Positions 39,047 through 40,398 of a DNA stretch of 64,000 nt are shown piece after piece (position 1 is the stretch's first letter; every line of letters starts with the position of its first letter). The notes beneath the pieces were generated by a model. That model worked only from the letters and a program-made list of their open reading frames with translations, was not told the DNA's origin and searched no databases. Origin of the DNA: Spizellomyces punctatus DAOM BR117 (Eukaryota); the NCBI GenBank assembly GCA_000182565.2, contig KQ257452.1; one strand, given 5' to 3'. The translations under genes and the position numbers were made by a program.

Positions 39047-40398
39047 ATGTCAGTATCGCTTAATTCTCAATCGGTTCGTGTTGGGATCAACGGCTTTGGT
39101 CGCATGGGTCGTCTCTTTTGCAGAGCCCTTTTCAATGCATTGGACGCTACCCAGAGCAACATTGAAATCGTCCATGTGAACGAAATTAAAGGAGATCTTT
39201 ATGTTGCAGCCCACCTCTTAAAGGTAAGTCGTTTTGAGTCAAACGATGGATACTAGGATTCTCAGCCCTTTCCGTAAAAGTTCGATAGCATCAAAGGTAT
39301 ATGGCCTCATGATGTGTCAACGGACAATGGCGACATTCTAGTCGACGGCCATCGCATCAAGTTTACCGAATACAGCACGCCTGCTGAAATTCCGTGGGAG
39401 CAAAGCAAGGTCGATGTTGTCGTAGAATGCAGTGGAAAGTTCTTGACCAAACTTGCACTTGCACCTCATTTCGACCATGGAGTTAAAAAAGTCGTAGTGT
39501 CGAGTCCGGTTAAGGAAGATGGCGTGTTGAACATTGTTATGGTAAGCTTGCGCAATTTTTGCTAAAGCCCAAGATTTAATATCCATGCTGACATGTGTTT
39601 TCAAGGGCGTCAATGACAATCTCTACGACCCCGCCAAATTTGATATCGTCACTGCAGCATCATGCACAACCAACTGTCTGGCTCCCATTGTGAAAGGTAG
39701 TTTCTTACAAGACATTTTCCTGACATTCCGACGCTAAGAAGATTGTACAGTGATCCATGAATCTTTGGGAATTGTTCAAGGGACAATGACAACGATTCAC
39801 TGTGTGGTACGGCAAAACTTGCCATTCATATGATTATGTCAATGTTAATGATTATAATTCCAATTAGACAAACACACAAACTGTCGTGGACGCTCCTCAC
39901 AAGGACCTCCGCCGTGCTCGGAGTTGCTTGACGTCTCTCGTTCCCACTACAACTGGATCAGCCACTGCCATCACGGTTATTTTCCCAGAATTAAAAGGCA
40001 AACTGAACGGTATGGCTGTCCGTGTTCCCTTGCTGAACGCTTCCTTGACGGACGCCGTCTTCCGAGTATCTCGGTCGACATCTGTCGAAGAGGTCAACGC
40101 CCTCCTTGCAGATGCTGCCAACGGCAGCTTGAAAGGGACTTTGGGCTTTGAAACTCGTCCTCTAGTCAGCGAGGACTTTCGGAATGACCCTCGTGCTAGC
40201 ATAGTGGATGCGCTCTCAACGATGGTGATAGACGAAACTATGGTGAAAGTCATTGGGTGGTATGATAACGAATGGGGATGTAAGTTGAGGTCCATTGGCA
40301 GAGATTCTATAGATCATTATCACAAGCTCTAACTTCACCATCCTATAGACGTTAATCAGATGCTCAAGATCACTCTCAAGGTTGTTAAAGCGCTTTAG
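39047..40398 (+). CDS. Glyceraldehyde-3-phosphate dehydrogenase of the bacterial ArsJ-associated/Gap3 type; exons 39047-39223, 39281-39541, 39606-39696, 39751-39806, 39868-40279, 40349-40398
   Basis: [10 protein letters not shown], catalytic [10 protein letters not shown] and WYDNEWGY. Clade-like segments are [61 protein letters not shown] and [20 protein letters not shown]. Confidence 0.92.

What the first reader, a model, noticed from the sequence alone, without database searches (positions are those of the whole stretch)
39047..40398. Intron-containing GAPDH of the bacterial ArsJ-associated (Gap3) clade in a fungus: candidate horizontally acquired arsenate-detoxification enzyme
Seen: a complete six-exon GAPDH with an intact catalytic ASCTTNC. 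It lacks the eukaryotic GapC S-loop (TQKTVDGPS.KDWRGGR) and instead has [18 protein letters not shown], plus [65 protein letters not shown] and DALSTMV. Established knowledge, recalled rather than searched: these segments characterise cyanobacterial Gap3 and the GAPDH encoded next to arsJ in Pseudomonas ars operons, where GAPDH makes 1-arseno-3-phosphoglycerate and ArsJ exports it. Inference: this is an old bacteria-to-fungus transfer (or a patchily retained gene) domesticated with five spliceosomal introns, acting in arsenate handling rather than glycolysis. No arsJ is visible in this window.
Basis: partly seen in the sequence, partly recalled or inferred. Interest (0 to 1): 0.85.

Follow-up and report, generated by a model that had tools for sequence, protein, structure and literature searches.

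The report
Bacterial-type arsenate GAPDH gene in a chytrid
A chytrid fungus carries an expressed, intron-containing gene for the bacterial kind of glyceraldehyde-3-phosphate dehydrogenase that normally works with the ArsJ arsenic exporter, which points to an old gene transfer, though an arsenic role in this fungus is not yet shown.

Summary
Window 39047-40398 (+) encodes a six-exon, 348-aa GAPDH with five GT-AG introns. RNA reads confirm splicing of intron 5.

The clade call also holds:
- Six of 6 chytrid orthologues pass NCBIfam's ArsJ-associated GAPDH cut-off; 0 of 9 bacterial paralogues do.
- In a careful tree the chytrid proteins form one clade (100/100) inside the ArsJ-associated clade, next to soil-bacterial sequences (97/95).
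- An AU test does not reject a sister position (p 0.32).

In bacteria, 78 of 80 related loci carry arsJ. This window has none, and no whole genome was held.

A related chytrid, Geranomyces variabilis, has both this GAPDH and an MFS protein that passes the ArsJ model. The other five genera with the GAPDH were not among the listed ArsJ hits.

The same GAPDH-ArsJ pairing is already described in green algae (PMC7826186). My searches found no report for fungi.

Verdict: a new member of a known kind. Bacterial descent is well supported. The arsenate role is plausible but unproven here.

The parts
39047..39223 (+). Exon 1 (59 codons; start ATG; NAD-binding [17 protein letters not shown])
   Evidence: gene model. 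Gp_dh_N, 43.3 bits; junction aligns without indel.
39224..39280 (+). Intron 1, 57 nt, GT..AG
   Evidence: Not covered by RNA joints.
39281..39541 (+). Exon 2 (87 codons)
   Evidence: best model NF033735, 88.6 bits. Gp_dh_N, 53.4 bits.
39542..39605 (+). Intron 2, 64 nt, GT..AG
39606..39696 (+). Exon 3 (91 nt; catalytic ASCTTNC)
   Evidence: SCTTNC at residue 165.
39697..39750 (+). Intron 3, 54 nt, GT..AG, phase 1
   Evidence: the split codon gives V in APIVKVIHE, as in all homologues shown.
39751..39806 (+). Exon 4 (56 nt; TTIH with the catalytic His)
39807..39867 (+). Intron 4, 61 nt, GT..AG
39868..40279 (+). Exon 5 (412 nt; S-loop [18 protein letters not shown] and most of the catalytic domain)
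   Evidence: NF033735, 247.6 bits, against 107.2 for the GapA-type model. Gp_dh_C, 159.3 bits; 82-97% identity to chytrid proteins and 74-80% to bacterial ones.
40280..40348 (+). Intron 5, 69 nt, GT..AG, confirmed by RNA
   Evidence: 5 raw RNA reads starting at 5 places join 40279 to 40349.
40349..40398 (+). Exon 6 (last 16 codons plus TAG stop)
40399..40700 (+). Probable 3' UTR (extent uncertain)
   Evidence: the highest RNA depth lies at 40162-40658, with first mates on + to the left and on - to the right. A convergent transcript is not excluded.

Best explanation
This is a nuclear, spliced, transcribed chytrid gene for a phosphorylating GAPDH of the ArsJ-associated family (cyanobacterial Gap3, algal GAPDH3). 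It descends from bacteria rather than from fungal GapC and is conserved in Spizellomycetales and Rhizophlyctidales.

Shown: family membership, intact catalytic motifs, retention of most clade-specific residues, host-like composition, and expression.

Inferred mechanism: as in Pseudomonas and green algae, the enzyme uses arsenate in place of phosphate on glyceraldehyde 3-phosphate. This makes 1-arseno-3-phosphoglycerate, which an unlinked ArsJ-type MFS permease exports, removing arsenate from the cell.

The permease exists in at least one chytrid of the same order. Whether it exists in this genome is unknown. If it is missing, the gene most likely serves as an extra GAPDH isozyme.
For: Membership:
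- Six of 6 chytrid orthologues score 492.8-511.4 bits on NF033735 (cut-off 450) and miss every other GAPDH or Epd subfamily model's cut-off; they also pass the generic type I model TIGR01534.
- Zero of 9 bacterial paralogues reach 450; the highest is 393.5.
- For the window's own exons 5 and 2 the best model is NF033735.

Tree (86 rows, LG+C20, careful search):
- Chytrids form one clade at 100/100. The ArsJ-type clade is separated from 8 paralogues at 100/100.
- The chytrids group with 14 bacterial rows at 97/95. Named ones are Hyalangium and Acidobacteriaceae/Tunturibacter.

Identity of the window protein: 56.7-68.4% to 186 bacterial ArsJ-type proteins, and 34.4-45.6% to 9 other paralogues, including 40.2% to a GapA-type one.

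Signature residues: 13 of 15 ArsJ-clade signature columns are kept.

Functional link of the family:
- 78 of 80 bacterial loci have an ArsJ-like gene. In 76 it starts within about 330 nt downstream on the same strand. Relatives of one such neighbour are named ArsJ.
- In green algae GAPDH3 and ArsJ co-occur, and a Chlamydomonas arsJ mutant is arsenate-sensitive (PMC7826186, passages read).
- Geranomyces variabilis has the GAPDH and an MFS protein scoring 403.8 bits on NF033734 ArsJ, cut-off 400.

Expression: spliced reads.
Against: - No ArsJ-like sequence lies in the 64-kb window, using bacterial or eukaryotic queries (E at least 1.3).
- Of the six chytrid genera with this GAPDH, only Geranomyces appears among the 120 listed relatives of a fungal ArsJ. 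The closest relative of the window, Spizellomyces sp. 'palustris', does not. The list ends at 266 bits and only 8000 word-sharing candidates were scored.
- Conversely, of the 11 fungal genera with ArsJ-like proteins, only Geranomyces appears among the GAPDH hits.
- Two signature residues are lost (H186Q and C258A in window numbering). Five columns that are at least 95% conserved in bacteria are replaced in all chytrids.
- The AU test does not reject chytrids lying outside all sampled bacterial ArsJ-type sequences (p 0.322).
- RNA depth over the coding part is low. No arsenate condition was examined.
Confidence: 0.5

Rival explanations
1. Stand-alone isozyme. The gene was kept after transfer but uncoupled from ArsJ in Spizellomyces. 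It works as an ordinary extra NAD-dependent GAPDH, for example a stress or gluconeogenic isoform, with no part in arsenic handling.
For: - No arsJ in the window.
- Five of six GAPDH-bearing chytrid genera are not among the listed ArsJ relatives.
- There are chytrid-specific replacements at 5 highly conserved columns and 2 lost signature residues.
- The chytrid clade has a long stem branch, 0.675.
- The catalytic motifs are intact, so ordinary GAPDH chemistry is possible.
Against: - Thirteen of 15 clade-specific residues are retained across a long period of chytrid divergence.
- In bacteria (78 of 80 loci) and in green algae (PMC7826186) the family goes with ArsJ.
- Geranomyces has both proteins.
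- Missing listings may reflect annotation gaps or the limits of the search.
Confidence: 0.33
2. Old eukaryotic inheritance instead of a chytrid-specific transfer. GAPDH3 entered eukaryotes once, together with ArsJ, and chytrids and green algae retain it by descent or by eukaryote-to-eukaryote spread. This rival concerns origin and is compatible with either function.
For: - Twenty-seven eukaryotic ArsJ-like proteins form one clade (SH-aLRT 100). They come from fungi, holozoans, green algae, a stramenopile, a dictyostelid and a hemichordate. The fungi form a sub-clade at 97.
- PMC9812998 reports the same monophyly (passage read).
- The AU test allows the chytrid GAPDHs to lie outside the sampled bacteria.
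Against: - The free tree nests the chytrid GAPDHs with soil bacteria at 97/95.
- No alga or other eukaryote appeared among the 120 best GAPDH hits.
- Geranomyces ArsJ is 36.0-46.5% identical to bacterial ArsJ, while its GAPDH is 54.8-65.6% identical to the partner GAPDHs. Only 29 of 1509 bacterial locus pairs in that GAPDH range have ArsJ that diverged. This hints at different histories, although faster ArsJ evolution in eukaryotes would give the same picture.
Confidence: 0.2
3. Replacement. This is the organism's only GAPDH, having displaced fungal GapC, and carries glycolysis.
For: Nothing direct. No second GAPDH could be sought because no genome is held. All catalytic motifs are intact.
Against: RNA depth over the coding region is very low for a glycolytic gene: 118 reads laid from 26.4 million records read, mostly over the 3' end. 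That library is 3'-biased and only about 6% of it was read. Recalled, not tested: fungi generally keep GapC.
Confidence: 0.05
4. Artefact: bacterial contamination or a chimeric assembly.
For: The catalytic-domain exon is 74-80% identical to bacterial proteins.
Against: - Five spliceosomal-type introns, one confirmed by RNA.
- Host-like GC, against 62-68% in seven of eight sampled bacterial homologues.
- Contigs of two other DNA runs cover the gene's 5' and 3' ends together with their flanks at 100% identity. These may come from the same sample as the assembly.
- Orthologues occur in six chytrid genera.
Confidence: 0.01

Closest known systems
Bacterial ars-operon GAPDH with ArsJ (Pseudomonas aeruginosa system of Chen et al. 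2016, as cited in PMC7826186; NCBIfam NF033735 and NF033734)
   Same: Same protein family by HMM cut-off and by tree. Same catalytic motifs, and 13 of 15 clade signature residues.
   Different: The chytrid gene is eukaryotic, with five introns and host composition. It is not next to arsJ, whereas 76 of 80 bacterial loci have arsJ directly downstream. Its activity with arsenate is untested.
Green-algal GAPDH3-ArsJ-PGK3 neighbourhood (Foflonker and Blaby-Haas 2020, PMC7826186; passages read)
   Same: A bacterial-type, intron-bearing GAPDH of the ars kind in a eukaryote, thought to be acquired by transfer. A eukaryotic ArsJ exists in the wider lineage.
   Different: In algae the genes are neighbours and co-occur strictly. 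Here there is no ArsJ or PGK-like gene within 64 kb, and co-occurrence among chytrid genera looks patchy. The relationship of the chytrid GAPDH to algal GAPDH3 could not be tested.
Cyanobacterial Gap3
   Same: The third GAPDH of Chlorogloeopsis fritschii PCC 6912 lies next to arsJ and falls in the same clade. Database names for the chytrid proteins read 'glyceraldehyde-3-phosphate dehydrogenase 3'.
   Different: The chytrids do not group specifically with cyanobacteria in the careful tree.
Pteris vittata GAPC1 plus OCT4 arsenate pathway (Cai et al. 2019, as cited in PMC7826186)
   Same: The same proposed chemistry: GAPDH arsenylates and a transporter removes the product.
   Different: That pathway uses ordinary plant GapC and an unrelated transporter. 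It is analogous, not homologous.
AS3MT transfer from bacteria to Chytridiomycota (PMC5398495; passages read)
   Same: A precedent for an arsenic-related gene of bacterial origin in Spizellomyces punctatus.
   Different: A different enzyme and pathway (methylation of arsenite).

Membership tests
ArsJ-associated GAPDH (NCBIfam NF033735; Gap3/GAPDH3) | Whole-protein score at or above the curated cut-off (450 bits) and higher than for any other GAPDH or Epd model | tested here: met
   6 of 6 chytrid orthologues score 492.8-511.4 bits, and the next model NF006512 scores 461-482 against its cut-off of 563. Bacterial controls score 575.6 and 578.6; 0 of 9 paralogues reach 450. For the window's own protein only separate exons were scored (247.6 + 88.6 + 37.9 bits over 283 of 348 residues). 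The spliced protein was not submitted to the tool. P0001, 94.8% identical to it, scores 492.8.
ArsJ-associated GAPDH (NCBIfam NF033735; Gap3/GAPDH3) | Falls inside the clade in a phylogeny rooted on other GAPDH and Epd paralogues | tested here: met
   the clade of 78 rows is separated from 8 paralogues at 100/100, and the chytrids group with 14 bacterial rows at 97/95; a sister position to all sampled bacterial members is not rejected (p-AU 0.322). Real GapC and plastid GapA/B sequences were not in the tree.
ArsJ-associated GAPDH (NCBIfam NF033735; Gap3/GAPDH3) | Catalytic Cys and His, and clade-specific residues | tested here: met
   SCTTNC and TTIH are present; 13 of 15 signature columns are kept.
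ArsJ-associated GAPDH (NCBIfam NF033735; Gap3/GAPDH3) | Gene adjacent to arsJ | tested here: not met
   there is no ArsJ-like sequence anywhere in the 64-kb window; 78 of 80 bacterial loci have one.
ArsJ-associated GAPDH (NCBIfam NF033735; Gap3/GAPDH3) | An ArsJ permease encoded somewhere in the same genome | not testable with these tools
   No genome is held. In a relative, Geranomyces variabilis P0428 scores 403.8 bits on NF033734, cut-off 400.
ArsJ-associated GAPDH (NCBIfam NF033735; Gap3/GAPDH3) | Makes 1-arseno-3-phosphoglycerate and confers arsenate resistance together with ArsJ | not testable with these tools
   Needs an enzyme assay and genetics.
Eukaryotic cytosolic GapC (and the related E. 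coli GapA type, NF011954) | GapC-type S-loop and best similarity to GapC/GapA | tested here: not met
   NF011954 scores 236-281 bits (cut-off 662); 40.2% identity to a Vibrio GapA-type protein, named as such; the S-loop differs; yeast TDH3 structures score 241 bits against 319 for Geobacillus GAPDH.
NF006512 (PRK08955) GAPDH | Score at or above 563 bits | tested here: not met
   461-482 bits for 6 of 6 chytrid proteins.
Erythrose-4-phosphate dehydrogenase (Epd) | Score at or above the cut-offs of TIGR01532 or NF010058 | tested here: not met
   276-309 bits against cut-offs of 530 and 539.

The most novel reading that the evidence does not exclude
Chytrids may run a mosaic arsenate pathway. The ArsJ exporter would be inherited within an old, eukaryote-wide clade, while the GAPDH partner was captured later from soil bacteria (Acidobacteriota or Myxococcota-like). 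In lineages such as Spizellomyces that may lack ArsJ, the captured GAPDH could have been re-used without an exporter. One possibility is that it activates arsenate for thiol-dependent reduction, feeding arsenite efflux or the AS3MT methylation route that chytrids also obtained from bacteria. GAPDH acting as an arsenate reductase is recalled from the work of Gregus and Nemeti and was not searched here.
Probability: 0.15. Interest if true: 0.7.

Novelty: new member of a known kind. Interest (0 to 1): 0.5.

Why it matters
It would extend the GAPDH-ArsJ arsenate-efflux route from bacteria and green algae to fungi. So far the only way known to export arsenate without first reducing it is this route.

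It also gives a clean, dateable case of a bacterial core-metabolism enzyme domesticated across two chytrid orders.

The ArsJ and GAPDH parts seem to have different histories in fungi. That makes a general question testable: are transferred pathways rebuilt piece by piece in eukaryotes?

Spizellomyces punctatus is recalled to be genetically transformable (not from any call), so the arsenate prediction could be tested directly.

Tried and rejected
- Whole-genome search for a second GAPDH and for ArsJ: no genome is held for this window.
- Metagenome scan for chytrid-like contigs carrying this gene with its neighbours: 80 loci, best 77% identity, all bacterial-like.
- Bacterial ArsJ as query for chytrid ArsJ: the 120 listed rows that carry a name are all bacterial (Binataceae) or generic, so nothing could be learned about fungi.
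- Atlas look-ups for ArsJ and for the chytrid GAPDH: only bacterial clusters.
- All ORFs of at least 90 aa from 174 fetched loci (7452 ORFs) against the window: only generic matches at about 9.4-10.9 kb (thiolase), 23.6 kb (kinase), 33.9-35.1 kb (helicase), 42.6 kb (5'-nucleotidase) and a short weak one at 48.8 kb. No ars, PGK or ArsJ match.
- AU test for nesting among bacteria: not significant.
- Peroxisomal targeting was considered and dropped. The C-terminus ends in KAL and the orthologues end differently.
- Literature: ArsJ + fungi + GAPDH (8 papers); ArsJ + chytrid (1 review); Spizellomyces + HGT + GAPDH (2 papers); Spizellomyces + arsen*; 1-arseno-3-phosphoglycerate + fung*. Judged by titles and abstracts, none describes this gene in fungi. 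PMC11370035 has 0 occurrences of arsJ and GAPDH. Supplements were not seen. The similarity networks and the supplementary ArsJ trees of PMC7826186 and PMC9812998 may show fungal nodes.

Rows dropped or flawed:
- The careful tree used 86 of the 209 rows of the FastTree. These were 45 of 80 genome loci (one, L015, was already absent from the 209-row set), 25 of 112 bacterial database hits, 8 of 9 paralogues (L092 left out for its 1.7 branch), and 7 of 8 chytrid database proteins (P0004 left out as a near-copy), plus the window protein.
- In the ArsJ tree one row (L032) was a wrongly extracted ORF with branch length 10 and should be ignored.

Full report
**What is there**

Window 39047-40398 on the + strand holds a complete gene of six exons: 39047-39223, 39281-39541, 39606-39696, 39751-39806, 39868-40279 and 40349-40398. 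The five introns are 54-69 nt long and all are GT..AG. The product is 348 aa.

Pfam finds both GAPDH domains. The five exon junctions align to chytrid and bacterial homologues without any indel. At the S-loop the protein reads [14 protein letters not shown], where a GapA-type enzyme reads TTVHATTATQKTVD.

Raw RNA reads from a run carrying the same species label were laid on the region. 118 reads lay there, most over the 3' end, and 5 of them join 40279 to 40349 exactly at intron 5. Introns 1-4 had too little depth to be checked.

Contigs of two other DNA runs contain introns 2 to 5 and cover the gene's two ends together with their flanks at 100% identity. They may come from the same sample as the assembly.

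**Setting**

The window is ordinary eukaryotic chromosome. It carries thiolase, a YqeH-like GTPase, a protein kinase, a DEAD-box helicase, a sarcosine-oxidase-like flavoprotein, a 5'-nucleotidase, an Ank-RCC1-BTB protein and a multidomain acetyl-CoA carboxylase.

The CDS has 48.1% GC (GC3 50.7%). Eight host exons or ORFs have 47.7-52.6%. The homologous segment has 62-68% GC in seven of eight sampled bacterial loci and 43% in the cyanobacterium. Contamination is excluded and the gene has long been at home in this genome.

**Whose gene**

The best database match to exon 5 is a protein of Spizellomyces sp. 'palustris', at 97% over exon 5 and 94.8% over 329 aligned residues. Next come Borealophlyctis, Geranomyces (three clusters), Gaertneriomyces, Rhizophlyctis and Powellomyces at 82-88% over exon 5. 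These genera belong to Spizellomycetales and Rhizophlyctidales (the placement of Rhizophlyctis, Powellomyces and Gaertneriomyces is recalled).

All further listed hits are 74-80% identical over exon 5. Those that carry a specific name are called ArsJ-associated GAPDH of bacteria. Over the full length the window protein is 56.7-68.4% identical to 186 such bacterial proteins. It is 34.4-45.6% identical to nine other bacterial GAPDH or Epd paralogues.

**Family test**

- For exons 5 and 2 of the window the best NCBIfam model is NF033735, ArsJ-associated GAPDH. For the short exon 1 it is second by 0.6 bit.
- The spliced window protein was not sent to the tool, so full-length orthologues were scored instead. 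Six of 6 pass the curated cut-off of 450 bits (492.8-511.4) and fail every other GAPDH or Epd subfamily model's cut-off; they also pass the generic type I model TIGR01534.
- Two bacterial controls score 576-579.
- Zero of 9 paralogues pass, the highest scoring 393.5. These are GapA-like, cyanobacterial Gap2-type, Epd and others, as named.
- Of 15 alignment columns that are at least 90% conserved in 186 bacterial members and never carry that residue in the paralogues, the window protein keeps 13.
- No structure of this subfamily is solved. The best PDB match is Geobacillus GAPDH at 319 bits, while yeast TDH3 gets 241.

**Phylogeny**

A FastTree of 209 rows put the nine chytrid rows in one clade (support 100) inside a 200-row ArsJ-type clade (support 100).

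A careful IQ-TREE run (LG+C20+F+G4, 86 rows by 336 columns) gave three results:
- Chytrids form one clade at 100/100.
- The ArsJ-type clade is separated from eight paralogues at 100/100.
- The chytrids group with 14 bacterial rows at 97/95. The named ones are a Hyalangium MAG and Acidobacteriaceae, including a Tunturibacter plasmid protein.

The bootstrap had not fully settled. An AU test of the alternative, in which all 70 bacterial rows are held together and exclude the chytrids, costs 9.78 log-likelihood units and is not rejected (p 0.322).

So membership of the family is firm. A soil-bacterial donor is the best estimate. Nesting is not proven. Real GapC, plastid GapA/B and algal GAPDH3 could not be fetched.

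**What the family does, and whether that applies here**

In 78 of 80 bacterial genome loci found with exon 5, an ArsJ-like MFS gene is present. In 76 it begins within about 330 nt downstream on the same strand. Relatives of one such neighbour are named ArsJ or 1-arseno-3-phosphoglycerate exporter.

Passages of PMC7826186 describe the same pair in green algae:
- The authors consider them acquired from bacteria.
- A Chlamydomonas arsJ mutant is arsenate-sensitive.

In this window there is no ArsJ, PGK or other ars-type gene. This held with a bacterial probe, with 7452 ORFs from all fetched loci, and with six eukaryotic ArsJ-like proteins.

**Is there a fungal ArsJ at all?**

A search of cluster representatives with a bacterial ArsJ gave 407 representatives at E no higher than 1e-30. 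Thirty were looked up by name. The named eukaryotic ones are green algae, Chrysoparadoxa, Corallochytrium, the dictyostelid Synstelium, the hemichordate Ptychodera, and the fungi Gonapodya and Allomyces.

Using the Gonapodya protein as query listed further fungi: six Glomeromycota genera, Blastocladiella, Gorgonomyces and Geranomyces variabilis.

On the ArsJ equivalog model NF033734 (cut-off 400 bits) the scores were:

| Protein | Bits |
|---|---|
| Ambispora | 414.7 |
| Geranomyces | 403.8 |
| Gorgonomyces | 403.3 |
| Allomyces | 392.2 |
| Capsaspora | 391.6 |
| Edaphochlamys (green alga) | 363.7 |
| Gonapodya (partial protein) | 362.2 |
| Bacterial control | 565.6 |

In a quick IQ-TREE of 56 rows the 27 eukaryotic proteins form one clade (SH-aLRT 100). 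The fungi plus one unnamed eukaryote form a sub-clade (97). This agrees with a statement in PMC9812998.

Thus at least one member of the window's order has both halves of the pathway.

**Evidence against a strict pairing in fungi**

- Of six chytrid genera with the GAPDH, only Geranomyces is among the 120 listed ArsJ relatives.
- Of 11 fungal genera with ArsJ-like proteins, only Geranomyces is among the 120 listed GAPDH hits.
- Both lists are truncated and depend on annotation, so this is weak evidence.
- Geranomyces ArsJ is 36.0-46.5% identical to bacterial ArsJ, while its GAPDH is 54.8-65.6% identical to the partner GAPDHs. Among 1509 bacterial locus pairs in that GAPDH range, only 29 have ArsJ that diverged.
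- That last point fits either separate histories of the two genes or faster ArsJ evolution in eukaryotes.

**Reading**

Shown:
- A spliced, expressed chytrid gene of the ArsJ-associated GAPDH family with intact catalytic motifs.
- It is conserved in two orders and is of bacterial type.

Inferred:
- It arsenylates glyceraldehyde 3-phosphate for export by an unlinked ArsJ (about 0.5).
- Alternatively, where ArsJ is missing, it serves as an extra GAPDH isozyme (about 0.33).
- Being the only GAPDH is unlikely (0.05).

Origin: a transfer from soil bacteria into the ancestor of these chytrid orders is favoured. Old co-inheritance with the eukaryotic ArsJ is not excluded (0.2).

**Novelty**

The pathway is known in bacteria and green algae. 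My literature searches found no description of this GAPDH type in fungi. Supplements were not available and could hold fungal nodes in published networks or trees.

I rate it a new member of a known kind, of moderate interest.

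Noticed in passing
window 37428-38867 (-): A sarcosine-oxidase / fructosyl-amine-oxidase-like FAD enzyme (Pfam DAO; best PDB matches are fructosyl amine oxidases at about 82 bits) is transcribed divergently from the GAPDH. Its likely ATG at 38822 lies 224 bp from the GAPDH ATG, so the two may share a promoter region. 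Its origin was not examined.
   Followed up: partly
proteins P0423-P0437, P0301, P0331, P0428, P0430: ArsJ-like MFS permeases occur in early-diverging fungi: six Glomeromycota genera, Allomyces, Blastocladiella, Gonapodya, Gorgonomyces and Geranomyces. They form a fungal sub-clade of a eukaryote-wide ArsJ clade, and three score above the ArsJ equivalog cut-off. Whether these fungi have an ArsJ-type GAPDH is unknown.
   Followed up: partly
proteins P0276, P0323, P0451, P0279: ArsJ-like proteins are on record for the hemichordate Ptychodera flava, the holozoans Corallochytrium and Capsaspora, and the dictyostelid Synstelium. The Ptychodera protein groups with green algae in the tree, which could mean contamination or transfer.
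   Followed up: no
protein P0012: A 458-aa metagenomic ORF runs from the C-terminal half of an ArsJ-type GAPDH straight into an ArsJ-like MFS and ends in scrambled sequence. It looks like a read-through or frameshift in a bacterial gap-arsJ operon, not a real fusion.
   Followed up: partly
window 40446-40700: RNA reads whose first mate lies on the - strand pile up just downstream of the GAPDH stop (depth up to 11). This is either the far ends of fragments of a roughly 300-nt 3' UTR or a convergent transcript.
   Followed up: no
window 39985-40277: Two 151-nt contigs of an environmental metatranscriptome run (X1) are identical to exon 5. The same or a very close chytrid is therefore present, and possibly expressing the gene, in that sample. 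DNA carry-over is not excluded.
   Followed up: no
chytrid GAPDH clade: Inside the chytrid clade the two Rhizophlyctidales do not group together. Borealophlyctis goes with Spizellomyces and Powellomyces, and Rhizophlyctis with Geranomyces and Gaertneriomyces. Support is weak (76/84 in the careful tree; SH-aLRT 91 in the quick tree), so this may be noise.
   Followed up: no
window 30357-30953 (+), 43172-44038 (+), 54619-57721 (+): The window has a Frizzled-like membrane region (weak, 22.9 bits), a cysteine-rich ephrin-receptor-like repeat protein, and an Ank-RCC1-BTB protein. These domain sets are more familiar from animals and protists than from Dikarya.
   Followed up: no
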